Below, in pieces: positions 1,683 to 53,843 of a stretch of 64,000 bases of DNA. A program made the position numbers and the translations under genes. The notes below the pieces were generated by a model. The model saw only the letters and a program-made list of their open reading frames with translations, did no database searches and was not told the origin of the DNA. Position 1 is the first letter of the stretch. Every line of letters starts with the position of its first letter. The stretch is from IMG/VR virus record IMGVR_UViG_3300045594_000630; one strand, given 5' to 3'. Source of the DNA: a virus.

Positions 1683-1756
1683 CGGGTCGTAGCCCAGCTT
1701 GGTAGGGCGCCTCGTTCGGGACGAGGAGGCCGCGGGTTCAAATCCCGCCAACCCGA
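1683..1756 (+). tRNA. tRNA-Pro(CGG)
   Basis: cctcg-ttCGGga-cgagg. Confidence 0.92.
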
Positions 1757-1847
1757 CACGCCGTGGGAACACGATTGTCAACGACCGTGTTATCATGGAT
1801 AACGCCGCGCTTCACGGAGCGTCGATAACTTAAGAATGCACCATCAA

Positions 1848-1921
1848 CGGGATGTAGCGCAGCTTGGTAGCGCGCTTGCTTTGGGAGCAAGATGCCGCAG
1901 GTTCGAATCCTGTCATCCCGA
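1848..1921 (+). tRNA. tRNA-Pro(TGG)
   Basis: cttgc-ttTGGga-gcaag. Confidence 0.95.
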
Positions 1922-2459
1922 CGATGATCGCCTGATTCTCGTGACTGACTGATCGAGTGACGCTCGTGAAGATCAGCCGCGATGGTGATCTGAATAACTG
2001 AATACAGAACTGCTCGCACCAGTTGGAAGCAAAGTGCGCGACGGCCCGGGTACCGGAATGTGAAAGAACTCACCCTGCTTGGTCACGAAGATCACCATGT
2101 AGTCGATGGTGCAGTGACGGAGCGCCTGAATACAGGATCGAGCATGGGGAAGCCATCGCCCTGATTCTTGAAGGTCCGTATGGATCTGATGGAGATGTAC
2201 ATTGTACGTCAGCAACGCGATGATAACTCATGAACGGGATTACCAGCGTCATTCATGGAATGTTGACGACCCGTAGACATAAACAAGTTCCTTCAGATTA
2301 TCTTCAAAACGATGCAGATCTGCGGTCGGTGCGATGCAGATCTGAGGTCGTCGTCCCACCGGTGAGATGCACCGGCAACCGTTGATGATGCTGTGACCGC
2401 ATCATTGACAGCACATGTGGTCATCGTCGTGCTGGCGGACGTGAAACGCCAGTTCTTAT

Positions 2460-2534
2460 TCCCCGGGAGCAACCTTCGGCGGCTGCGATCGACTGTTAAT
2501 CGATAGAGAGCTGGTTCGACTCCAGTCCGGGGAG
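2460..2534 (+). tRNA. tRNA-Asn(GTT), atypical D arm (G8)
   Basis: atcga-ctGTTaa-tcgat; acceptor tccccgg/ccgggga. Confidence 0.8.
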
Positions 2535-2736
2535 CGATGGTTGAAAAGGGCGAAGATTGTTAAAAGATTGCTCATCATTCTGAATCCACGTGGTAGCTCC
2601 TCGTGGACGATGATAGGAAAGTCCGGAATCGAAAACTGATGACGATCATACTCTGGTCAATGTGCCATACAATCGGGAGGTCCATATCGTAATTCAGCGA
2701 GGCCTAGCGAGTAATTGACCTCAAGGTCCATCCAAT

Positions 2737-2813
2737 GCTTTCATGGCCCAATCGGCAGAGGCGCAGGGCACACTGCAGACCTGTTCATACTGGTTCGACT
2801 CCAGTTGGAAGCA
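2737..2813 (+). pseudogene. Leu-body tRNA-like gene with a 10-nt scrambled anticodon loop
   Basis: Body matches 6485-6558; anticodon arm caggg-cacactgcag-acctg. Confidence 0.65.
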
Positions 2814-2926
2814 CGCAGTATCAGTAGGCTATGAGCTGGCAGCGTGACGCAAGTCATCTTGGTTATCTGTGACCACCAGCGAGCTGAATGCAATAGCAGA
2901 CGGGTGAGTGCAAGGCTCACCATCAT

Positions 2927-3011
2927 GGATGATTCGCATAGAGGCCTAGTGCACTTGTCTTGAAAACAAGAGTGGGTCACACCACCGGGGGTTCGAATCC
3001 CTCATCATCCG
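2927..3011 (+). tRNA. tRNA-Ser(TGA)
   Basis: cttgt-ctTGAaa-acaag; long variable arm. Confidence 0.92.
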
Positions 3012-3121
3012 CGACCCGTACGTTGGGTCCATCTGGCGACACGATGGATTGGCGGTCCATCTTCTCCTGGCGGGGGATAGCCGGTTGATGTGATCGCATA
3101 CGGATTGCATCGCATACAGAT

Positions 3122-3206
3122 GCCCTCATGGCTGGAATAGGTAGACGCGGACGGCTCAAACCCGTCTCCCGTAATGGGGATCTCGGTTCGACTCCGAGTG
3201 AGGGTA
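3122..3206 (+). tRNA. tRNA-Leu(CAA)
   Basis: gacgg-ctCAAac-ccgtc; long variable arm. Confidence 0.92.
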
Positions 3207-3471
3207 CGACGAACACATCGGGCGGCTTAATCACCCGTCCGGTCGTGGGCATACATATGTCGCGCGTGGACGTGATTGATCCACGTGGATAGCCCGTTGC
3301 CAGGCATGTCCCGGCGGAAGTTTGATGCAGATTCTGCGTAGTTCGTCTTCCGTTGGGATCACTTGAAGACAGGTGCGGCCCGTTGGCTGCGGTGGAAGTG
3401 GGGTCCGAGTACCCAACGGTACCGGTTAGACTCCGGCTCCGGCGCGTGGGAACTCATCCATCTCCATATCT

Positions 3472-3545
3472 GCTCTCTTAGCCCAATTGGTAGAGGCGAT
3501 AGACCAAGGATCTATTCAGTGCGGGTTCGAGTCCCGTGGAGAGCA
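3472..3545 (+). tRNA. tRNA-Leu(AAG), C33, short variable loop
   Basis: ataga-ccAAGga-tctat; same body as the Leu TAG and CAG genes. Confidence 0.8.
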
Positions 3546-3896
3546 CAGATCTCATGACATCCTTACGGATGTCCTCTGAGATTCAGGGTCGATTCACTGT
3601 GGTGGTGATGAACATGCTCAAGGCCCGTCATGCAAGCATAGGAGTATGGAGCGAAGTTCCTATGTGGCTGCTGGTGCTGCGTAAACTGGTCGCGGTACAC
3701 GAATAACCAGATGATGTCCGGACTACTTGCCGGACAGACATGACAAGCAAGATGCTAACCACTGATTGCTTCCAGCATTAAATTGACTGGATAATGGCGA
3801 GATGGTGAAAGCCCATCGAGTGGAGTTAAAACCCGCGGCTTAATTAACCGTGGGGATCAGGGAGACTATGAATCGATCTGTTCACGCCACGCTTAC

Positions 3897-3969
3897 GCCC
3901 TTATAGCTCAGATGGTAGAGCAGCTGACTCTTAATCAGCGTGTCCGGGGTTCGAGCCCCCGTGAGGGCA
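3897..3969 (+). tRNA. tRNA-Lys(CTT)
   Basis: gctga-ctCTTaa-tcagc. Confidence 0.95.
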
Positions 3970-4017
3970 CTTATGAGCATTGATAGCATTGTGGCGCATT
4001 GATGATCATATGATTAT

Positions 4018-4101
4018 GGATGGTAGGCTGAGCGGTTAAGGCGCCTGTTCGCTAAACAGGTTCGTGTCACAGCGTGGTGGGTTCGACTCCCGCATCATCC
4101 G
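4018..4101 (+). tRNA. tRNA-Ser(GCT) copy 1, C33
   Basis: cctgt-tcGCTaa-acagg; paralog of 11519-11602. Confidence 0.82.
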
Positions 4102-4224
4102 CGGTCGGTAGGGGTTGTCCTCACTGGGCGATCAGCGACCTCATGAGCGCACGCATGGGATCAGTCACAGATCGTTGCAGTGCAGAACCCCTTCAGAAGA
4201 TGGACTCCGTGAAGGTCCACGAAT

Positions 4225-4297
4225 GCCGTCATAGCTCAGATGGTAGAGCGGCGAGCTGAAACCTCGCAGGTCGCTGGTTCAAGTCCAGTTGTCGGCA
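4225..4297 (+). tRNA. tRNA-Phe(GAA)
   Basis: gcgag-ctGAAac-ctcgc. Confidence 0.93.
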
Positions 4298-4298
4298 C

Positions 4299-4382
4299 GG
4301 TGCGGCTGAGCGACGGTCGCTCAGGTGGCCGTAACCCACCCGTTCGTAATGAGCATTGCAGGTTCGAATCCTGTCCGCACCA
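4299..4382 (+). tRNA. tRNA-Tyr(GTA), C33, atypical D arm
   Basis: ggtgg-ccGTAac-ccacc; acceptor ggtgcgg/ccgcacc. Confidence 0.75.
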
Positions 4383-4406
4383 CTCAGATCTGAAACAGAT
4401 CTGTAT

Positions 4407-4477
4407 GCGTCCATCGTATAATGGTAGTACTTGAGCTTCCAAACCTCATGATCTGGGTTCGATTCCTAGTGGGCGTG
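4407..4477 (+). tRNA. tRNA-Trp(CCA), probable (Gly-like D arm)
   Basis: tgagc-ttCCAaa-cctca with a C31-C39 mismatch; G73 and acceptor resembling 7618-7690. Confidence 0.65.
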
Positions 4478-4629
4478 CGAGACCAAGCCGTGAGGTGAGG
4501 TCATGGTTGACTGCATGATCGCCTACAATGCGTGTGGCTAGACACTGAAGTCATGCAGACAGCGTCGTCACTGGTATCGGCGGTGACGGCAACCGGTTCT
4601 CGTGTCCGGCTTACCAAAATACGACCAAT

Positions 4630-4702
4630 GGGGGCATGGCGCAGCTGGTAGCGCAACTCCTCAGCAAGGAGTAGGTCGCGGGTCCGAGTCCCGCTGCTTC
4701 CA
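4630..4702 (+). tRNA. tRNA-Ala(AGC), C33, C55
   Basis: actcc-tcAGCaa-ggagt; G3-U70, A73. Confidence 0.82.
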
Positions 4703-4929
4703 CTTGGATCCATCAAGACAGGGCGGCGTCAGCAGCATGATGGATCCGCGACACGCCGGTGATTGAGATCGGGCTGACTATGTTACAATGGTATTGTCCA
4801 CGAAAACGATGGATCACCCGAAGCCTGATAACCTAATCTAAGTCAATCATCTGGATCCATTGTCCACAGCGTATGCTCAGGATGATGGCAGGATGTCAAA
4901 GTCCCCGCGATGACGATAAACCCGCGAAT

Positions 4930-5010
4930 GCCCCTATGGTAGGAATTGGTAGACACGGTCGACTTAAAATCGATTGCTTAGGCGTCCCGGTTCGAGTCCG
5001 GGTGGGGGTA
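4930..5010 (+). tRNA. tRNA-Leu(TAA)
   Basis: gtcga-ctTAAaa-tcgat. Confidence 0.92.
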
Positions 5011-5125
5011 CAAGGTCGCGCCTAGGCGCGACCGCTCATCGGATCCATGTGATTCGATGAGCATGCAGTACCGTGAGATGATGCGGGTTCGAGTCCGCCT
5101 GGCAATCATTAACGGTGACGGAGTT

Positions 5126-5197
5126 GATCTAGTAACTCAATGGCAGAAGCTACTCCATTTATTGTGGAAATGCGGGTTCGAATCCCGCCTAGTGATC
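5126..5197 (+). pseudogene. degenerate tRNA (loop ttTATtg)
   Basis: Intact T arm gcggg-ttcgaat-cccgc; 2-nt insertion in the acceptor; weak D arm. Confidence 0.45.
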
Positions 5198-5282
5198 CGT
5201 CACAGATGATGCTGTGCGTCAATGGCGCATTGGAATAGATTCAACATTCTAATGGGGCCAGTCATCCAGCGTCCGCATGAAT

Positions 5283-5356
5283 GCTTTCATAGCCCAATAG
5301 GTAGAGGCGATGGATTTAGGATCCATTCAGTGCTGGTTCGAGTCCAGTTGAAAGCA
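5283..5356 (+). tRNA. tRNA-Leu(TAG), short variable loop
   Basis: atgga-ttTAGga-tccat. Confidence 0.9.
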
Positions 5357-5359
5357 CAA

Positions 5360-5446
5360 TGTCCGAATCAACTTAACGGCAGAGCAGCGGCCGAAACGCC
5401 GTGCGCGGGTCATTCCCGGCCTGTAGGGTTCGACTCCCACCGGACA
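5360..5446 (+). pseudogene. class II tRNA-like gene with a 6-nt anticodon loop
   Basis: gcggc-cgaaac-gccgt; variable-arm hairpin; ttcgact T loop. Confidence 0.4.
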
Positions 5447-5587
5447 GGAGCTGTATGCAAGTGGTGACGATCATGAGCATACGGTTCACAGCGTGGCGAA
5501 GATCTTGACGATGATCTTCATCACGCACGTTTGGCTCTATCATCGCTTGGCGATGATTGCAAGGTTCATCCCAAGGAGCCAATTCAT

Positions 5588-5659
5588 GGCCGTGAGGTCC
5601 TACGGTTGGACGCCTGCCTGTCGAGCAGGTTGCAGCGGGTTCAACTCCCGTCATGGTCG
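5588..5659 (+). tRNA. tRNA-Asp(GTC) copy 1
   Basis: cctgc-ctGTCga-gcagg. Confidence 0.88.
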
Positions 5660-5904
5660 CAAGGTGCCTGGTGTCTGCGCCGAGGATCAGCCCCTGGCTG
5701 ATCCATGACACCCGGTGGAAACGGCATGGTGACATGAAAACAGCATGGATCCATGATACGCCCTCCGTCTGTTACTTTCCGTCGGTGATGCTGAGGCGGC
5801 GGGGTTAACGATCTGTATTGTAGCGGATCGCTGCCGGCACGACCACATGGTCTTGAATGGACATGAAGCATCTCACGTGACGTCCGTGAAGCGTCACTTA
5901 AATT

Positions 5905-5984
5905 GGTGCGTTGGCAGAGCGGCAAATGCGGCTGGCTGTAAACCAGCTCTTTCGGGTTCGGGGGTTCGAGTCCCTCACGCACCA
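5905..5984 (+). tRNA. tRNA-Tyr(GTA)
   Basis: gctgg-ctGTAaa-ccagc. Confidence 0.93.
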
Positions 5985-6129
5985 CACAACATGTTTGGAT
6001 GGGTTAAAGGACACCAATGGCCCCATCCTGTTGACAGTGCTCACTGTCAACAGCGTGTGATCGTGCAGTGCAGGTGCCCAGTCGACCACTGCACGGGATA
6101 GTCCTCATGATGACGATAAAAGCATGAAT

Positions 6130-6200
6130 GCCTCTATAGTTCAAAGGAAGAACTTCGGACTTTTAATCCGCAGATCGGATATCGTAATTCCGTGGGGGCA
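6130..6200 (+). tRNA. tRNA-Lys(TTT) with aberrant T loop ATCGTAA
   Basis: tcgga-ctTTTaa-tccgc; acceptor gcctcta/tgggggc. Confidence 0.7.
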
Positions 6201-6484
6201 CGATGGTCATGTGGATTGCAACTGCGTGATCACGACTCGAATCTGCAGATTCGGGAATATGGATGCAAGTGAGCACAAGCCGCTGGTTGTGGTTCGAATC
6301 CCGCTCCTCAATGGTTATACCGGCGAGGGCGCGCCAATCGGTAGAGCGGGCGGCTGAACTCAACTGCATTCATCATGCAAGCATGTGGGGGTGTTCGACT
6401 CCCGCCTAGGGGCTCCATCGTGAGAGCGGTGGACACGCCCTTGGTGGTCTAGGGGTCATGGCGCTTCATATTGCTTGCACTTAT

Positions 6485-6558
6485 GCTTCCATAGCCCAAC
6501 AGGTAGAGGCGCAGGCTTCAGGAGTCTGTCAGTGCCGGTTCGAATCCAGTTGGAAGCA
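6485..6558 (+). tRNA. tRNA-Leu(CAG), short variable loop
   Basis: caggc-ttCAGga-gtctg. Confidence 0.88.
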
Positions 6559-6695
6559 CGGGCCACTAAAGATGTGAGTTCGCTCTGAAATCTAGCTAGA
6601 TACATCAATTGACCAAGGATGGTAACGTTGCGGAGTCATGATCCGTATGACGCGGATGTCACACGATGTTGGCATCATGCATCACCATTCGATAT

Positions 6696-6769
6696 GCTCT
6701 CATAGCCCAATGGATCAGAGCGCTTGTCTACGGAACAAGAGGGTGCGGGTTCGAGTCCCGCTGGGAGCA
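6696..6769 (+). tRNA. tRNA-Arg(ACG)
   Basis: cttgt-ctACGga-acaag. Confidence 0.93.
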
Positions 6770-6795
6770 CCGTGACCACATGGTGTGGTCATTAT

Positions 6796-6866
6796 TGCCC
6801 ATTCGTCTAACGGCAGGACGAAGGTCTTTGGTACCTTTAAAGTTGGTTCGAATCCAGCATGGGCAG
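6796..6866 (+). tRNA. tRNA-Gln(TTG)
   Basis: aaggt-ctTTGgt-acctt. Confidence 0.92.
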
Positions 6867-6867
6867 C

Positions 6868-6940
6868 GCTTCTCTGGCTCAATGGTTACAGCATCTGACT
6901 CTTAATCAGAGGATTGTGGGTTCGATCCCCACGGGGAGCA
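6868..6940 (+). tRNA. tRNA-Lys(CTT) copy 2
   Basis: tctga-ctCTTaa-tcaga. Confidence 0.9.
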
Positions 6941-6974
6941 CTTGGGGACATTCTGGTGACAGATGTCTACCATA

Positions 6975-7014
6975 GGGGCGGCTATATACCATGGTTCAAA
7001 TCCATGGCGCTCCA
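6975..7014 (+). ncRNA. tRNA-Ala-like minihelix (acceptor plus T arm only)
   Basis: ggggcg/cgctcc with G3-U70 and A73; ccatgg-ttcaaat-ccatgg; 8-nt linker replaces the D and anticodon arms. Confidence 0.5.
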
Positions 7015-7056
7015 CGACGGATGATGTCAGATCTGCTCCACATCGTCCTCACGTAT

Positions 7057-7129
7057 TGCTTGATAGCGCAACTGGGAACGCGCTCCGCTCTGGACGGAGA
7101 GATTGCAGGTCCGAATCCTGCTCAAGCAG
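7057..7129 (+). tRNA. tRNA-Gln(CTG), C55
   Basis: ctccg-ctCTGga-cggag. Confidence 0.88.
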
Positions 7130-7217
7130 CTTCACAGGTTTGGTGGCTAGCGTCGGCGGGTTGATACTGCCGACGCCCGTAGCGAGGGAGAGTCCTCGTG
7201 CAGATCTGTGGATTCTT

Positions 7218-7292
7218 GCCCTTGTAGCTCAGCGGATCAGAGCATCGGTCCTCGGAACCGAGTTGTCGCAGGTTCGAATCCTGTCAGGGGCA
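7218..7292 (+). tRNA. tRNA-Arg(TCG), C33
   Basis: tcggt-ccTCGga-accga. Confidence 0.85.
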
Positions 7293-7330
7293 CTGGCGAT
7301 GGTGCAGGCAGTGATGCTTGCGGATCGCCT

Positions 7331-7375
7331 GCAGCGTCACCGGGTCAGGGTGGGAACACAGCAGCCCAGCGCTGT
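7331..7375 (+). ncRNA. ffs: minimal SRP (4.5S-like) RNA, domain IV/helix 8
   Basis: cagcgt-cacc-ggg-tcagg-gtg-GGAA-cac-agcag-ccc-a-gcgctg: GGAA tetraloop with the symmetric and asymmetric loops of the SRP consensus. Confidence 0.8.
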
Positions 7376-7377
7376 TT

Positions 7378-7450
7378 GGGGTTGTAGCTCAGATGGTAGA
7401 GCGCTTCGTTCGCATCGAAGAGGTCGCGGGTTCGACTCCCGCTAATTCCA
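7378..7450 (+). tRNA. tRNA-Ala(CGC)
   Basis: cttcg-ttCGCat-cgaag; G3-U70. Confidence 0.92.
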
Positions 7451-7532
7451 CTGACCTTGGATCTGGTCTTACCATTGATGGGGCGCTTAGCTCCGTCATC
7501 TTCTGTACCTAGGCTGGTCCGAGTGTCTTCAT

Positions 7533-7615
7533 GGTGCGTTGGCAGAACGGCGAATGCAGTCGATCATACAGATCGGCATCTTCGGGATACGGGGGTTCGA
7601 GTCCCTCACGCACCG
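7533..7615 (+). pseudogene. Tyr-body tRNA-like gene with extended anticodon arm and G73
   Basis: Paralog of 5905-5984; arm gtcgatc-ataca-gatcggc. Confidence 0.6.
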
Positions 7616-7617
7616 CA

Positions 7618-7690
7618 TCGTCCGTGGCGTAAATGGTAGCGCAGCGGTCTCCAAAACCGCAGATTGCAGGTTCGAGTCCTGTCGGGCGTG
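7618..7690 (+). tRNA. tRNA-Trp(CCA)
   Basis: gcggt-ctCCAaa-accgc; G73. Confidence 0.9.
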
Positions 7691-7724
7691 CTATGACTGC
7701 AACCTGTAAAAAGGGTAGTCGTAT

Positions 7725-7796
7725 GCCGGTATAGCACAATGGTCAATGCTTCTGCTTAGTAAACAGATGATGATGGTTCGATTCCATCTATCGGCT
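7725..7796 (+). tRNA. tRNA-Thr(AGT)
   Basis: tctgc-ttAGTaa-acaga (C31-A39 mismatch). Confidence 0.82.
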
Positions 7797-7797
7797 C

Positions 7798-7871
7798 GTT
7801 CGCGTGGCGCAGTTGGTTAGCGCGCTTCCATGACACGGAAGAGGTCGCCTGTTCGAGTCAGGCCGTGAGCA
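7798..7871 (+). tRNA. tRNA-Val(GAC)
   Basis: cttcc-atGACac-ggaag. Confidence 0.92.
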
Positions 7872-7872
7872 C

Positions 7873-7945
7873 GCCTCCATAGCTCAGATGGTAGAGCGGC
7901 TCTCTCGTAAAGAGCAGGTCTCCGGTCCGATTCCGGATGGTGGCT
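7873..7945 (+). tRNA. tRNA-Thr(CGT), C55
   Basis: gctct-ctCGTaa-agagc. Confidence 0.9.
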
Positions 7946-7975
7946 CTAGTGGAACAGATCTGTATCCACGATCAT

Positions 7976-8047
7976 GCGGGTATCGTACATCGGTAAGTAC
8001 ATCTTTCTGATGAGAAGAAAAGCGGAGTTCGACTCTCTGTACCCGTA
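7976..8047 (+). tRNA. tRNA-Ile(GAT), Gly-like body
   Basis: tcttt-ctGATga-gaaga; A73. Confidence 0.75.
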
Positions 8048-8071
8048 CTGGTGACAGACTGCTGTCATCAT

Positions 8072-8144
8072 GGGGACGTAACTCAATTGGTAGAGTGCTT
8101 CCCTTGCAAGGAAGATGTAGCGAGTTCGAATCTCGTCGCCTCCA
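8072..8144 (+). tRNA. tRNA-Ala(TGC)
   Basis: cttcc-ctTGCaa-ggaag; G3-U70. Confidence 0.92.
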
Positions 8145-8267
8145 CGGCGCCCGTTCAACGGGCTATGTCATTAGAAGCGTTCTAACGCGCATTAGACGTG
8201 AGACCATCATGAAGATGAGTGTTCATTCATCTTCATGGTTATCTCGCTTAGAACGCAATCTAAGCAT

Positions 8268-8339
8268 CCGGATGTAGTACAACGGTTAGTATAATTGTCT
8301 GATACACAATTGACGATAGTTCAACTCTATCCATCCGGA
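8268..8339 (+). tRNA. tRNA-Ile(GAT)
   Basis: attgt-ctGATac-acaat. Confidence 0.88.
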
Positions 8340-8406
8340 CTATGGATCCATATGATGTGGACATGTGAGCAAGCATTGAGCCCGTCATGATGGATCCATT
8401 CTGCAT

Positions 8407-8480
8407 CGCTGCGTAGCTCAGTTGGTGAGAGCGTTCGACCCATAATCGAGAGGTCGGTGGTTCGAGTCCACCCGTAGTGA
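8407..8480 (+). tRNA. tRNA-Met or Ile2 (CAT), C33
   Basis: ttcga-ccCATaa-tcgag; positions 1-72 paired. Confidence 0.82.
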
Positions 8481-8601
8481 CGATCCTGTTAGCATGACGA
8501 CTGGTCATCTCATGCTGATGGGGTAAGAATGAGAGCAGCGTTGGATTGACCGATCCGCGTGGATTTGCGTCCGTTAGTGGCGTGATCCCCCATTCGATTA
8601 T

Positions 8602-8674
8602 GGTCCTATGGAGCAACGGTCACCTCGTCTGATTCTCAGTCAGAAGATTCCGGGTTCGATTCCCGGTGGGACTA
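8602..8674 (+). tRNA. tRNA-Glu(CTC)
   Basis: tctga-ttCTCag-tcaga. Confidence 0.92.
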
Positions 8675-8892
8675 CGCAGCATTGAGTACATGTCCGGTTC
8701 AATGGGCACATCCAAATAGTCTCTCAGGATCAATGTGAGGATGGGTCAGATCATGATGGAAGTCCTGTAGATCGTGGTCATCATGCTGCACGCAACATAC
8801 GGGTCTAGCGGTCCCGTCGGTGATCATTGCGAGCATTACAGCGCATCGTGCTCGCATGATCTTACAGATCCTCCGTCAATGGATCTTATTAT

Positions 8893-8964
8893 GGCCTTGA
8901 GGTCCTCCGGTTGGACGCCTGCCTGTCGAGCAGGTTGCAGCGGGTTCGATTCCCGTCATGGTCG
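8893..8964 (+). tRNA. tRNA-Asp(GTC) copy 2
   Basis: Near duplicate of 5588-5659; one acceptor mismatch. Confidence 0.85.
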
Positions 8965-8965
8965 C

Positions 8966-9036
8966 CGTGGTGTGGCCGAATGGTTAGGCGGCGGTCTGCA
9001 AAACCGTATAAGTCAGTTCGATTCTGATCACCACGT
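8966..9036 (+). tRNA. tRNA-Cys(GCA)
   Basis: gcggt-ctGCAaa-accgt; U73. Confidence 0.92.
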
Positions 9037-9039
9037 CTT

Positions 9040-9353
9040 GAGTTCCGCTTGACGTCGCGCGTCTAACAGGCGTGAGGAAATTCGGGGCATCATAGGGCAG
9101 GGGTGTGGATTAGACCACCGATCGTGAGATCAGCGATAGCGCCGCAGAGACCATACCGCCGATGGATCCATACGGGTCACAGGCAAGGGTGAAAAGCGTG
9201 AGGTAAGAGCTCACGGGATAATCTTCGCGAGGAGATCCTTGGCAAGCCGACCCTGATGAAACCACAAGTCGTGCTGGGCGGCCCGTCCAATAGCACAGGT
9301 AGCGGGATCAGATGGATGGCGTCTTAGACAGAACTCCGGTTACGGTGGAACTC
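9040..9353 (+). ncRNA. rnpB: RNase P RNA (bacterial type A-like, compact)
   Basis: P1 gagttccgc/gtggaactc; CR-I gaggaaattcgggg; agcgccgcagaga; accgccgatgg; aagggtgaaaag-ggtaagagc; CR-V acagaactccggtta. Confidence 0.9.
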
Positions 9354-9378
9354 ATGAACGATCTGCTCGACACTCCGG

Positions 9379-9407
9379 TTGTCAAGATGCTCGATCAGTG
9401 ATATGAT
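9379..9407 (+). promoter_or_regulatory. internal sigma70-type promoter of the array
   Basis: TTGTCA-17 nt-TATGAT with extended TG. Confidence 0.55.
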
Positions 9408-9488
9408 GGATCATGTTGTTCCTGATGACAACAGAAGCTTGATAACAGGATAGTGATTGACCCGATGAAGTCAGTAAACTCATCATAT

Positions 9489-9562
9489 GCCCGCATAGCC
9501 CAATGGACTAGAGCGCCAGTTTCCTAAACTGTAGGTTGTCGGTTCGAATCCGACTGTGGGCA
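9489..9562 (+). tRNA. tRNA-Arg(CCT)
   Basis: ccagt-ttCCTaa-actgt. Confidence 0.9.
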
Positions 9563-9735
9563 CTTGGACACTCCGGTGAAGCTATCCTCATGTGAAGACG
9601 TAGGGGCTTGACAGGGGCTGGTGGAGTGGACAATCGTGTAGGCAATGCGGTTAAGCGTCGTCAATGGTCGCAAAGTAGGCGGAAGCGTTGACAAGCATGC
9701 CGATCCCAGCAGGATGGCGCCATCTTGCTGGTTAC

Positions 9736-9809
9736 GCCTCGGTAGTCTAATGGATCAAAACGCCACTCCTCTAAAGTGGATAGTATGGGTTCGAATCCCA
9801 TTCGAGGCA
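9736..9809 (+). tRNA. tRNA-Arg(TCT), C33
   Basis: ccact-ccTCTaa-agtgg. Confidence 0.85.
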
Positions 9810-9810
9810 C

Positions 9811-9885
9811 GTGGACTATGGCTCAATGGTAGAGCGACGGATTGTGGCTCCGTAGGTGCGGGTTCGATTCCCGCTAGCCCAACCA
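9811..9885 (+). tRNA. tRNA-His(GTG) with G-1, A73 and encoded CCA
   Basis: acgga-ttGTGgc-tccgt. Confidence 0.88.
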
Positions 9886-9926
9886 CCGATGAGAATGTCA
9901 ACAGATGTTGACAAGAATCATCGTAT

Positions 9927-10001
9927 GGCCCCGCGGTGTGCTTGGTCTGCGCATACGTGACTTTCAATCACATGGTGACGGTTCGAGTCCGTCCGGGGCT
10001 A
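9927..10001 (+). tRNA. tRNA-Glu(TTC)
   Basis: cgtga-ctTTCaa-tcaca. Confidence 0.85.
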
Positions 10002-10030
10002 CCCTCCATGAGACATGGATGAACGATCTT

Positions 10031-10101
10031 GCCCCATTGTCGCCGGTTGCGCAACGATATCTTATAAACATTGTAAGAGGGTTCAACTCCTTCATGGGGT
10101 A
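10031..10101 (+). tRNA. tRNA-Ile(TAT), atypical D arm
   Basis: gatat-ctTATaa-acatt; acceptor gccccat/atggggt; A73. Confidence 0.6.
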
Positions 10102-10266
10102 CTTGTCGGGGAATGGCATAGTCTCCAGCGCACGTCATCCTAGGTGGCGTGGTCAACTGGCGGCAAGCGCCAGCAGATCTGATCTGTCGCTTCCCGTAAG
10201 AACAGCTCCTCTCCCCGACCACATCGTGATATCTTGTACACGACATTGGTATCATGGTGCTTGCAT

Positions 10267-10337
10267 GCGGATGTAGCCCAATGGTAAGGCGTCAGTCTTC
10301 CAAACTGATTACGCGGGTCCGATTCCCGTCATCCGCT
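10267..10337 (+). tRNA. tRNA-Gly(TCC), C55
   Basis: tcagt-ctTCCaa-actga; U73. Confidence 0.9.
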
Positions 10338-10493
10338 CTGAAGGCCAACAGCTCCTGGACTAGCGATCCGAGAGTTGCATAAACGGTGTGGTAGTCTGTT
10401 GGCCTGTAACACGCGCTGCGTCTCATGTGCCGGCAAGCGCCGTCACGCAGGCTATATCGGACACTCACGTGGTGAGACAGGGTGTCCACCAAT

Positions 10494-10566
10494 GCGGACA
10501 TGGTCTAGCTGGTAAGACGCGACCTTCCCAAGGTTGAGATCGCGGGTTCGAGCCCCGTTGTCCGCT
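10494..10566 (+). tRNA. tRNA-Gly(CCC)
   Basis: cgacc-ttCCCaa-ggttg. Confidence 0.92.
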
Positions 10567-10693
10567 CGATCGTCATTGCGGTAATGGCTGGCCGGGCAGT
10601 AATGGCGTTGATACCCGGAACTGCGCTCCTTGTGGATTCGATTGTATCCACGCAGGGTTAGGCGATCACGATGGAGCTTGTCGCCGCCATTAT

Positions 10694-10766
10694 GCTTCCG
10701 TAGCTCAGATGGCAGAGCGCCTCGGTCACATCGAGGATGTCGATGGTTCAAGTCCATTCGGAAGCA
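10694..10766 (+). tRNA. tRNA-Val(CAC)
   Basis: cctcg-gtCACat-cgagg. Confidence 0.92.
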
Positions 10767-10767
10767 C

Positions 10768-10844
10768 TGCGGGGTCGAGTAGCAATTCGGTAGCTCTCGT
10801 GGCTCATACCCACGGTGTTGCAGGTTCAAATCCTGCCCCCGCTA
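10768..10844 (+). tRNA. initiator-like tRNA-fMet(CAT)
   Basis: cgtgg-ctCATac-ccacg; U1-U72 mismatch; only two of the three G-C pairs. Confidence 0.8.
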
Positions 10845-10885
10845 CTAAGATCTGCGCTCATGAACGCAGATCTGCATGCAGTCTT

Positions 10886-10961
10886 GCTCCTGTAGCCCAG
10901 TCCGGCCCAAGGCGTCTGCCTTACACGCAGAAGATCCATGGTTCGAATCCATGTGGGAGCA
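10886..10961 (+). tRNA. tRNA-Val(TAC)
   Basis: tctgc-ctTACac-gcaga. Confidence 0.92.
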
Positions 10962-11105
10962 CGGCGGAACCTACTTGCAAGAGTCATCGTGCTGATAGTT
11001 CCCGAACGGGAGTAAGACGAGTGCAGGGAATGCCCTGGACTCGTCGAGAATTCAATGGTCGACTGGTTCCTTTCGCAATGCTGGCATTCAAGCATTGCAC
11101 TCAAT

Positions 11106-11178
11106 GCGGACATAGCTTAGTTGGTAAAGCGCGACCTTGCCAAGGTCGAGACCGCGGGTTCAAGTCCCGTTGTCCGCT
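11106..11178 (+). tRNA. tRNA-Gly(GCC)
   Basis: cgacc-ttGCCaa-ggtcg. Confidence 0.95.
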
Positions 11179-11182
11179 CTTC

Positions 11183-11255
11183 GCCTTGTTAGCTCAGATG
11201 GTAGAGCGGCCGCCTTGTAAGCGGCAGGTCTCCGGTTCAAGCCCGGAACATGGCT
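11183..11255 (+). tRNA. tRNA-Thr(TGT)
   Basis: gccgc-ctTGTaa-gcggc. Confidence 0.93.
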
Positions 11256-11256
11256 C

Positions 11257-11341
11257 GGATGATTCGCATAGTGGTCGAGTGCACTTGTCTAGAAAACAAG
11301 AGTGGGTCACACCGCCGGGGGTTCGAATCCCTCATCATCCG
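11257..11341 (+). tRNA. tRNA-Ser(AGA)
   Basis: cttgt-ctAGAaa-acaag; near duplicate of Ser(TGA) at 2927. Confidence 0.88.
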
Positions 11342-11518
11342 CTATTGATGATGGATAGATCGGTCTTCAACGATCTTATCAGCAGTCAAGAAACATGATA
11401 GCAGGGATTGAAGATACTTGCTGTCATGGATCGTGGTGGACACGCCCTGGTGCATAGCCAGGAACACGATCTAGTCAGGGTGGCTCCATGCCATCACTGA
11501 CAGCGCCATGATCATTAT

Positions 11519-11602
11519 GGATGGTAGGCTGAGCGGTTAAAGCGCCTCACTGCTAATGAGGTTCGGGTAACACCGTGGCGGGTTCGACTCCCGCATCATC
11601 CG
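11519..11602 (+). tRNA. tRNA-Ser(GCT) copy 2
   Basis: cctca-ctGCTaa-tgagg. Confidence 0.92.
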
Positions 11603-11857
11603 CAAGATCATGCCGGCAGTGATGTGGACATGATCCCTCCGCCGCAGGGGAACTGGGGAGCCGTGTGGGATCCCCGACTGCGGTCATGTCGGCTCTGCCC
11701 ACAGACTGCCGGCATCGTGGAGATCCCTGGTCGCGCAGGTCAAGACGCGCCGTGGAGGCTGGCCGTGCTCCACGATCATCAAAAACCAGGCGGATATGCT
11801 AAACAGAGCTAATAGGAATCTGGGAACCATGCTGTCTGCATGTGAGACAGCATGTAT

Positions 11858-11943
11858 GGAGAGTGTGATCTATTGGTAAGGTCGACCCGCTTCGAATACG
11901 GGCGCCGGTAATACGGTTAGGGGTTCGATTCCCTTACTCTCCG
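11858..11943 (+). tRNA. tRNA-Ser(CGA)
   Basis: cccgc-ttCGAat-acggg; long variable arm; G73. Confidence 0.85.
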
Positions 11944-11958
11944 CAATCATTGTCACGG

Positions 11959-18757: not shown

Positions 18758-19945
18758 ATGAGTTCTAATGATGCACCGATCAAGATAGATCTTAGAGGCG
18801 TGCAGTACAAGCAATGGCAGAGCATCTTCAGTCTGCTAGCATACCCGGGTTGCTCGGAGGTTGAGATCAACGGACCTGACCTGGTGTTCATCAAGCATCG
18901 TGGCAAGAGGCTTCAGGTAGGCATAGACACCCCGAACCCGATCGCATGGGTCGATAACAGTGACTTCGAGCGCACGATGTCTGACGTTGAGAGCCATATG
19001 GTGAGATACGGTCAAGACTTCAAGGACTCATTCTGTATCTATGAGGGTGGACTCAGATTGAAGACACTTGACGGGGCGCCTGAGATCCGCGCCAGGTTCC
19101 ATTGCTTGAAGCCGCCGGTCTGCGAGTTCCCTGCTGTCACGATCGCGAAGCAGTCGGTAGAGCTTGCCACGCTGGATTCGATCTTGAAATCAGGATCGTT
19201 ATCCTTGGAGATGGCCAATTTCATCAAGGGACTTATGGCCAAGCGGCAGACGCTGGTGTTCTCAGGTGGAACAGGTGCCGGCAAGACTACATTCTTGAAC
19301 GCAGTGTCGAAGCTCATTGACCCTAAGGAGAGGGTCATTGTCTGCGAGGACGCCCCTGAGCTTCTGTTCGATCATATCCCCGACACCGTGTACTTGAGAT
19401 CATATCCTCGTCAGCCCGGCAAGAGTACTGATGACCAGGCCACTCTTTCATGGGTGGTGGCGCAGACAGCCCGTCAACGATGCGATCGTATCATCATCGG
19501 TGAGACCCGTGGACCTGAATTCTCCGACTTCCTCACCGCCGCGAACTCAGGCTTCGACGGCTCGATGACCACGCTCCATGCGAACACTCCTCGAATGGCG
19601 CTGGACAAGATGTTCAACTTCTCCAAGCGCGCTCCGGGCAACGGATCTACTCCGTCATCATCGATCAACCAAGACATTGCGAACGCCGTCGACTACATTA
19701 TCCAGCTCGGACGGCCCGGTGGAAGCAAGTATCGTGTTCTTGCGATCGAGGAGGTCACGAAGGTCGTTGGCGACACTGAGGCGGCCAAGATCAAGACGAA
19801 CCCGATCTTCCAGTATGACAAGGATGCCGATTCATGGCGTCGTGTTGGATGGCCGTCTGATGACACTATGAGGGAAGCTCTTAACAAGTTCGAGAGCGGG
19901 CAGTTCAGCCAGGAGCACCGCCGTCATACGACGAGAAGAATATGA
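18758..19945 (+). CDS. CpaF/TadA/VirB11-family secretion ATPase
   Basis: GGTGAGKTT, EDAPEL, RIIIGETRGPE, GSMTTLHAN. Confidence 0.92.
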   Translation: MSSNDAPIKIDLRGVQYKQWQSIFSLLAYPGCSEVEINGPDLVFIKHRGKRLQVGIDTPNPIAWVDNSDFERTMSDVESHMVRYGQDFKDSFCIYEGGLRLKTLDGAPEIRARFHCLKPPVCEFPAVTIAKQSVELATLDSILKSGSLSLEMANFIKGLMAKRQTLVFSGGTGAGKTTFLNAVSKLIDPKERVIVCEDAPELLFDHIPDTVYLRSYPRQPGKSTDDQATLSWVVAQTARQRCDRIIIGETRGPEFSDFLTAANSGFDGSMTTLHANTPRMALDKMFNFSKRAPGNGSTPSSSINQDIANAVDYIIQLGRPGGSKYRVLAIEEVTKVVGDTEAAKIKTNPIFQYDKDADSWRRVGWPSDDTMREALNKFESGQFSQEHRRHTTRRI

Positions 19946-53407: not shown

Positions 53408-53752
53408 GGGGTCGAAAGGAATCGATTGATCCTCATAACTGAACAGTGCAAGCCGCTGAACCACGATAGCACAGCGTATAAACTATTCGTGAAATTACAG
53501 AAGCTGCTTACAACACTTCTGACTTCGCTCTAGCAGCGTAGTCCGTGAACATGATGAGGTCACTATCTTGTAGTCATGTTCGCGTCGCAACAAGATAGCG
53601 AGGGCGAGATCGGGTCGACTCGTCTGGTTGCAGACCCGGAACCGAGTACCTAGGCCGATCCATGTCCGGTGGTACTTGTTAAGACATGGGAAGCTTGTAA
53701 TCCACTGCCAGGGCGAGGAGACAAGACCCGGGTTCGAATCCCGGCGGCTCCA
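53408..53752 (+). ncRNA. ssrA: tmRNA
   Basis: 5' GGGGTCGAAAGGAATCGA; 3' T arm and cggctcca with G3-U70; tag frame ending ...AAYNTSDFALAA-stop (53482-53541). Confidence 0.92.
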
Positions 53753-53843
53753 CAACTGATCTGTCACCCCTGTCATCCATCTTATCAGATTCATGGTATG
53801 ATGCTACCATTGTTACGTACTTACGGTAAGATGGAGGTAGAGC

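What the first reader, a model, noticed from the sequence alone, without database searches (positions are those of the whole stretch)
6975..7014. A 40-nt natural alanine minihelix inside the tRNA operon
Seen: a 6-bp acceptor with G3-U70 and A73 stacked on a 6-bp T stem with a TTCAAAT loop gives the canonical 12-bp acceptor-T helix. The D and anticodon arms are replaced by gctatata. Established: AlaRS charges such minihelices in vitro, and RNase P and the CCA enzyme recognise this domain. Inference: a chargeable non-decoding RNA (Ala donor for peptidoglycan or lipid aminoacylation, a decoy, or a processing signal).
Basis: partly seen in the sequence, partly recalled or inferred. Interest (0 to 1): 0.68.

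Follow-up and report, generated by a model that had tools for sequence, protein, structure and literature searches.

The report
Natural 40-base alanine tRNA minihelix
Among about 50 tRNA genes on a giant mobile element sits a 40-base gene that keeps only the alanine-marked top half of a tRNA; it is real and resembles short RNAs in unrelated phages, but whether it is made, charged or useful is untested.

Summary
Observation confirmed. Window 6975-7014 folds into a perfect 12-bp acceptor+T helix with every alanine mark (G1-C72, G2-C71, G3:U70, A73), a TTCAAAT loop and an 8-nt linker. The split is 6/6, not the canonical 7/5, and CCA is not encoded (only C74, as in all 50 array tRNAs checked). It lies in a ~51-tRNA array of a ~350-kb conjugative actinobacterial-type element that encodes RNase P RNA, tmRNA and a CCA enzyme. 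An independent assembly has the same bases. A single fresh deletion gives 6/6 in only 1% of simulated perfect outcomes, whereas 6/6 minihelices recur in unrelated phages (8/23 vs 0/22 control hits). One phage family keeps the 6/6 fold through six compensatory changes yet loses G3:U70. The only relative with a readable array has neither a minihelix nor a tRNA-Ala in this slot, so conservation of this copy is unproven. Best reading (0.45): an excised, alanylatable, non-decoding RNA with a weak EF-Tu stem, acting as acceptor-end decoy or alanine donor. Rivals: relic (0.27), processing signal (0.20). No Rfam family or paper found; this scan reported similar 34-59-nt RNAs on other DNA.

The parts
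6975..7014 (+). Alanine-identity minihelix gene (40 nt to base 73; 43 nt after CCA completion)
6975..6980 (+). Acceptor 5' strand (G1..G6); G3 at 6977
   Evidence: pairing
6981..6988 (+). 8-nt unpaired linker in place of the D, anticodon and variable regions
6989..7007 (+). 6-bp T stem (C48-G66, C49-G65, A50-U64, U51-A63, G52-C62, G53-C61) with loop TTCAAAT 6995-7001; 17 of 18 bases match the T arm of tRNA-Val(TAC) at 10936-10953; predicted weak EF-Tu stem (+1.0 kcal/mol)
   Evidence: PMC3239215 Table 2
7008..7015 (+). Acceptor 3' strand (U70 at 7011), discriminator A73 (7014) and C74 (7015); no encoded CCA
6943..6972 (+). Upstream spacer hairpin with GNRA loop; loosely resembles an Ala acceptor stem with one bulged A (weak: such loose matches occur elsewhere)
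7016..7050 (+). Downstream spacer hairpin
6868..6940 (+). Upstream neighbour tRNA-Lys(CTT)
7057..7129 (+). Downstream neighbour tRNA-Gln(CTG)
8072..8144 (+). tRNA-Ala(TGC), the likeliest relative: its acceptor minus the A5xC68 mismatch equals the minihelix acceptor, and its leader shares an 11-mer with the minihelix leader (3 copies in the window)
   Evidence: inference
9039..9358 (+). Element-encoded class A RNase P RNA inside the array
   Evidence: 166.5 bits
1683..11944 (+). tRNA array, 51 ARAGORN calls, all + strand
53408..53755 (+). Element-encoded one-piece tmRNA (another G3:U70 RNA)

Best explanation
A tRNA-Ala-derived gene that lost its D and anticodon arms and was then re-tuned to keep a 12-bp top half (6/6). 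Shown: the sequence, fold, identity marks and setting. Inferred steps: (1) it is co-transcribed with the array; (2) RNase P (host or element) cuts before G6975, the 3' trailer is trimmed to C74 and the CCA enzyme completes a 43-nt RNA, as for the CCA-less tRNAs around it; (3) host AlaRS charges it through G3:U70 and A73; (4) with no anticodon it cannot decode, and its weak T stem lets it largely escape EF-Tu; (5) it therefore acts as a free acceptor-end substrate outside the ribosome. I rank a decoy for host defence enzymes that attack tRNA acceptor or CCA ends slightly first (about 0.27) and an alanine donor for host Fem/MurM or lipid aminoacyl-transferases second (about 0.18).
For: Perfect helix, canonical T loop and all Ala marks. 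C74 is shared with 50 of 50 window tRNAs and 48 of 49 in the relative. Own RNase P RNA and CCA enzyme. Single-deletion simulation: 6/6-only is 85 of 8,603 perfect outcomes and 0 of 344 for Ala tRNAs. The form recurs: among viral hits with an intact T stem, full 12 bp in 11/23 vs 3/22 for a control pattern (p 0.02) and 6/6 in 8/23 vs 0/22 (p 0.004). Some copies fill slots in tRNA arrays (L013, L131), and a 40-nt 6/6 copy with an 8-nt linker occurs in a Baltobacteraceae genome (L227). EF-Tu sum +1.0 vs -0.6 to -1.1 kcal/mol for the element's three tRNA-Ala (PMC3239215). G2-C71 is the FemX determinant and acceptor helices are FemX substrates (PMC2655667). Arrays on mobile elements are proposed anti-defence units (PMC12803027), and a toxSAS toxin reads the acceptor stem (10.1101/2024.07.05.602228, abstract).
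Against: The one readable relative (G001, 420 kb, CCA enzyme about 60% identical) has a homologous array but no minihelix, so conservation of this copy is not shown. In the L018 phage family the fold is kept while G3:U70 and A73 are lost in 6 of 10 contigs. The weak T stem is simply the arm of the element's own tRNA-Val(TAC), and across the class EF-Tu sums range from -1.1 to +1.4. The leader has A at -1, where 31 of 50 array tRNAs have AT at -2/-1. No transferase partner was seen in the part of the element read, and none of FemAB, LPG synthase or SmpB in G001.
Confidence: 0.45

Rival explanations
1. Neutral relic: a spare tRNA-Ala copy lost its middle and is drifting. It may still be cut out and even charged, but nothing depends on it.
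For: Absent from the relative. The array already has three full tRNA-Ala and holds other degenerate tRNA-like pieces (T arms at 5172 and 10077). The acceptor and a leader 11-mer resemble tRNA-Ala(TGC) at 8072. About a fifth to a third of simulated deletions leave a perfect top half.
Against: A single deletion almost always leaves 7/5, not 6/6 (1% overall, 0/344 for Ala). The linker does not look like a variable loop (T at position 46, seen in 5 of 79 class I tRNAs). After a register shift and a different T arm, no pair, loop base, identity mark or C74 is damaged. The same 6/6 form recurs elsewhere and is held by compensatory change.
Confidence: 0.27
2. Processing signal: only the 12-bp shape matters, as an RNase P and 3'-trimming site that breaks up the transcript. 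Alanine identity is inherited baggage.
For: In the L018 family the 6/6 fold and 10-nt linker are kept by six two-sided changes while G3:U70 becomes G3-C70 and A73 becomes U, and that form lies 6 bases before a tmRNA gene. RNase P cleaves acceptor/T hairpins at the canonical site (PMC11143913).
Against: Here it sits between two full tRNAs only 116 bases apart, which already punctuate the transcript; many spacers in the array are longer. Selection on shape alone would not need to keep the G:U wobble and A73.
Confidence: 0.2
3. An extreme tmRNA-like domain that works with SmpB, either releasing stalled ribosomes or titrating SmpB.
For: G3:U70 top half without anticodon arm, as in tmRNA. The TLD-only RNA of phage DS6A is a precedent (PMC4131195, PMC11915505). 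In the L018 family the Ala form occurs in contigs that lack the tmRNA in that slot (partial records).
Against: No D-loop equivalent, no h2 stem and no GAC before the T stem, unlike the element's own tmRNA (SmpB site from own knowledge). Weak EF-Tu stem. The element already has a full tmRNA.
Confidence: 0.07
4. Chance hairpin, integration-site remnant or assembly artefact.
For: 3' fragments of tRNA-Ala and tmRNA at integration sites do mimic this pattern: the control scan gave 51 hits against 42, and four genome hits were duplicated tRNA-Ala 3' ends.
Against: Expected number about 4e-7 in the spacers. Its 3' half copies no tRNA-Ala or tmRNA of the window. Same bases in an independent assembly.
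Confidence: 0.01

Closest known systems
Synthetic minihelix-Ala (Francklyn and Schimmel 1989; cited in PMC9976931 and PMC4033280)
   Same: 12-bp acceptor+T helix, T loop, G3:U70, A73
   Different: Natural and genome-encoded; 6/6 split with an 8-nt bulged linker rather than a continuous 7+5 hairpin; CCA must be added
tRNA-like domain of tmRNA (RF00023) and the TLD-only RNA of phage DS6A (PMC4131195, PMC11915505)
   Same: Ala identity, no anticodon arm, carried on mobile elements
   Different: No D-loop, h2 stem or GAC motif; about 25 nt shorter than the ~65-bp CDS-less forms; 6/6
mascRNA/menRNA (RF01684)
   Same: Short tRNA-like RNA cut from a longer transcript and given CCA; best Rfam look-alike (16.6 bits)
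   Different: Far below the 42.5-bit cut-off; vertebrate, 7/5, keeps two small arms
Allo-tRNAs 8/4 and 9/3 (PMC7609411)
   Same: 12-bp top half with a shifted split; some carry G3:U70
   Different: They are full cloverleaves that decode; 6/6 is not among the described splits
Non-proteogenic tRNA-Gly of Staphylococcus aureus (PMC7826273)
   Same: Weak EF-Tu binding with a possible cell-wall donor role
   Different: Full-length tRNAs whose FmhB determinants lie in the D and T arms; Gly, not Ala; donor role shown there, only inferred here

Membership tests
Canonical tRNA-Ala (RF00005) | Cloverleaf with D arm and anticodon arm | tested here: not met
   8-nt linker only; no ARAGORN or Rfam call
Canonical tRNA-Ala (RF00005) | 7-bp acceptor plus 5-bp T stem | tested here: not met
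   G7 faces G66; C48-G66 makes 6/6
AlaRS substrate (minihelix-Ala) | G3:U70, A73, G1-C72, G2-C71 | tested here: met
   determinants in PMC9976931
AlaRS substrate (minihelix-Ala) | 3' CCA end | tested here: inconclusive
   Not encoded; C74 present as in all array tRNAs; CCA enzyme gene next to the array
AlaRS substrate (minihelix-Ala) | Actual alanylation | not testable with these tools
   needs an assay
RNase P hairpin substrate | 12-bp stem capped by a T loop, G at +1, unpaired 5' leader | tested here: met
   PMC11143913; A at -1 is atypical for this array
tmRNA / TLD-only RNA (RF00023) | D-loop region, h2 stem and short variable link that bind SmpB | tested here: not met
   absent; compare the element's tmRNA; no RF00023 hit at E<=10
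mascRNA-menRNA (RF01684) | Score above the gathering cut-off | tested here: not met
   16.6 vs 42.5 bits
Integration-site (att) tRNA fragment | Copy of the 3' end of an intact tRNA or tmRNA gene | tested here: inconclusive
   No parent among window genes; host chromosome and the rest of the element not available
Non-proteogenic (cell-wall donor) tRNA | Weak EF-Tu T stem | tested here: met
   +1.0 kcal/mol vs -0.6 to -1.1, computed from PMC3239215; not a constant of the class
Non-proteogenic (cell-wall donor) tRNA | Preferential use by a Fem-type or lipid transferase | not testable with these tools
   no partner gene found in the part read

The most novel reading that the evidence does not exclude
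Bacterial mobile elements encode a recurrent class of 38-45-nt stand-alone minihelix genes, mostly in a 6/6 register. They are matured like tRNAs and charged with alanine in vivo for a job outside decoding (anti-defence decoy or non-ribosomal alanine donor): a living counterpart of the minihelix long used as a model of the primordial tRNA.
Probability: 0.35. Interest if true: 0.8.

Novelty: new variant of a known kind. Interest (0 to 1): 0.52.

Why it matters
Minihelices are known as laboratory substrates and as a model of the ancestral tRNA. I found no paper or Rfam family for a natural stand-alone gene of this kind. If it is expressed and charged, it shows that cells tolerate and use a bare tRNA top half, makes the 'operational code' idea testable in vivo, and adds a gene class that tRNA finders miss in phage and plasmid arrays. 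If it is a relic, the 6/6 class seen in other phages still stands as a lead.

Tried and rejected
No whole genome is held for the window. Exact and near-exact patterns of the element found nothing in viral or metagenome contigs; an array marker found only G001, and the element-type RNase P motif was not found in 401 sampled Actinomycetales genomes. The two proteins flanking the array have no close homologues; distant ones led to no readable array. Related elements L049 and L052 have no tRNAs near their CCA gene. The arrays of Bifidobacterium megaplasmids pMP7017 and p1 hold no minihelix. Sequencing runs: no RNA holder listed, which says nothing about expression. Raw hit counts of the viral pattern are not evidence (42 vs 51 for the control); I used only pairs the pattern did not force. 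Rejected as minihelices: TLD-type mini-tmRNAs, tmRNA and tRNA 3' ends, and the Akkermansiaceae and Phycisphaerales hits, which are duplicated tRNA-Ala 3' ends. The 160-codon ORF 6963-7445 runs through three tRNA genes and is taken as spurious. A split or permuted tRNA was considered: the flanking hairpins have no D-arm or anticodon-loop form. The promoter scan of the array was near background, 13 vs 8.6 +/- 3.1. Two searches for natural minihelices in the literature gave no describing paper; the library lacks most subscription journals.

Full report
Observation. Window 6975-7014 (+) reads as a 6-bp acceptor (G1-C72, G2-C71, G3:U70, G4-C69, C5-G68, G6-C67), an 8-nt linker, a 6-bp Watson-Crick T stem with the loop TTCAAAT, and A73. 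RNAfold returns this fold with 93% ensemble weight and z -3.06, also within the 115-nt spacer between tRNA-Lys(CTT) and tRNA-Gln(CTG). ARAGORN and Rfam do not call it. The analytic chance in the array's spacers is about 4e-7 (post hoc). A contig from another sample covers it without a difference.

Setting. The window holds 51 tRNA calls at 1683-11944, a class A RNase P RNA inside the array and a tmRNA at 53408, with conjugation-type ATPases, topoisomerase, NAD ligase, a sigma factor and TnpB genes. The contig is 349,703 bases, from bioreactor sludge. A CCA-adding enzyme of actinobacterial type is encoded just before the window start. All 50 array tRNAs I could parse are followed by C74 and only one by a full CCA; the minihelix also has C74. 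Its leader ends in TA, where 31 of 50 end in AT. So the element treats this unit much like its tRNA genes, with one atypical base.

Relatives. The CCA enzyme led to a related 420-kb circular element, G001, whose array I read in full. It has a homologous order of tRNAs and an RNase P RNA, but no alanine minihelix and no tRNA-Ala in the Gln-Lys-Gln region. No closer relative could be read.

Origin. The minihelix acceptor equals the acceptor of the window's tRNA-Ala(TGC) without its A5xC68 mismatch, and the two leaders share an 11-mer that has three copies in the window; this is suggestive only. Its T arm matches that of tRNA-Val(TAC) in 17 of 18 bases. To test a fresh deletion I enumerated all single internal deletions of tRNAs from both arrays that leave 38-46 nt. 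A perfect 6/6-only helix arose in 85 of 8,603 perfect outcomes and in none of 344 from Ala tRNAs. The unit has therefore changed more than once since it was a tRNA and yet kept 12 pairs, the loop, the G:U wobble, A73 and C74. That is the main argument for selection on this copy. It is an inference, and it assumes a canonical ancestor.

A wider class. A pattern scan of viral contigs gave 42 hits, but a control with a non-pairing 5' pentamer gave 51, because tmRNA and tRNA 3' ends match too. I therefore scored only pairs the pattern did not force. Among hits with an intact T stem the full 12-bp helix was present in 11/23 against 3/22 (p 0.02), and the 6/6 register in 8/23 against 0/22 (p 0.004). 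Examples fill slots in tRNA arrays (L013, L131); an imperfect one lies between two tRNA-Ala genes (L017). A 40-nt 6/6 copy with an 8-nt linker occurs in a Baltobacteraceae genome (L227). In one gut-phage family the same slot holds either an alanine-type 6/6 minihelix (4 contigs) or a 6/6 minihelix with six two-sided pair changes, G3-C70 and U73, placed just before a tmRNA gene (6 contigs). There the geometry is clearly selected and alanine identity is not constant. These are analogues, not homologues, of the window's copy.

Mechanism. From established work, RNase P cleaves acceptor/T hairpins at the normal site (PMC11143913), the top half is what RNase P, the CCA enzyme and synthetases read (PMC4033280), and G3:U70 with A73 governs alanylation, including of minihelices (PMC9976931). 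I therefore expect a 43-nt, alanylatable RNA that cannot decode. With the T-stem values of PMC3239215 its EF-Tu sum is +1.0 kcal/mol, against -0.6 to -1.1 for the element's tRNA-Ala, so an EF-Tu sponge is unlikely. This fits use outside the ribosome, as for non-proteogenic tRNA-Gly (PMC7826273), and G2-C71 suits FemX (PMC2655667). Against this, the arm is shared with a normal tRNA-Val, the class is not uniformly weak, and no transferase was found in the part of the element read or in G001. A decoy role fits the proposed anti-defence use of such arrays (PMC12803027) but has no direct support. A pure processing role fits the phage analogue but is hard to need between two tRNAs 116 bases apart.

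Verdict. Real and not in any described family I could find. Odds: excised non-decoding alanine RNA with a job 0.45 (decoy 0.27, donor 0.18), relic 0.27, processing signal 0.20, SmpB-related 0.07, artefact 0.01. Earlier notes of this scan describe similar 34-59-nt RNAs in phage arrays; I did not check those cases and do not count them as support. Novelty: new variant of a known kind. Interest 0.52.

Noticed in passing
L018:8303-8344 vs L230:647-688 (also L027, L029, L042, L231-L235): Gut-phage family with two forms of one 6/6 minihelix: alanine type where the slot has no tmRNA, non-alanine type directly before a tmRNA gene. The swap may be a functional replacement.
   Followed up: partly
L217:7870-7910, L218:2832-2872, L226:5412-5452: Three Akkermansiaceae genomes carry a duplicated tRNA-Ala 3' end preceded, at the same 9-nt distance, by a complementary GGGGCG, so the integration scar itself folds as a near-perfect minihelix.
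   Followed up: partly
window 6868-7014; L013:6669-6795; L131:803-929: In three unrelated arrays the minihelix neighbours tRNA-Lys(CTT); not so in L018, L017 or L044. Post hoc, may be chance.
   Followed up: partly
window 1683-11944 and G001 array: Every parsed window tRNA (50/50) and 48 of 49 in G001 are followed by C74 but almost none encode CCA: a strict 3'-processing signature.
   Followed up: partly
L058 about 3560-3635 and about 4320-4350 (- strand): G001 has a G3:U70 tRNA-like gene with a 6- or 8-nt loop around CGC, plus a truncated copy; ARAGORN misses both.
   Followed up: no
L058 about 5325-5385 (- strand): After tRNA-Lys(CTT), G001 has a tRNA-like unit with acceptor, D arm and T arm but no proper anticodon arm.
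   Followed up: no
window about 5120-5200 and 10030-10102: Degenerate tRNA-like units with intact T arms that ARAGORN does not call; the second has a counterpart in G001.
   Followed up: no
L009, L012, L021, L032-L034, L037, L039, L045, L030, L081: Many viral contigs carry ~75-80-nt tmRNA-like domains without a coding part.
   Followed up: no
L001:18581-19867: The Bifidobacterium longum megaplasmid p1 has a FemA/FemB-family gene 3.5 kb after its tRNA array.
   Followed up: no
window 7331-7375; L051 about 19555-19590: An SRP-like hairpin noted earlier by this scan is also present in the relative's array.
   Followed up: no
L003:1279-3212 (just upstream of window position 1): A GNAT acetyltransferase gene lies tail to tail with the CCA enzyme gene, next to IF3 and a DnaX-like gene.
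   Followed up: no
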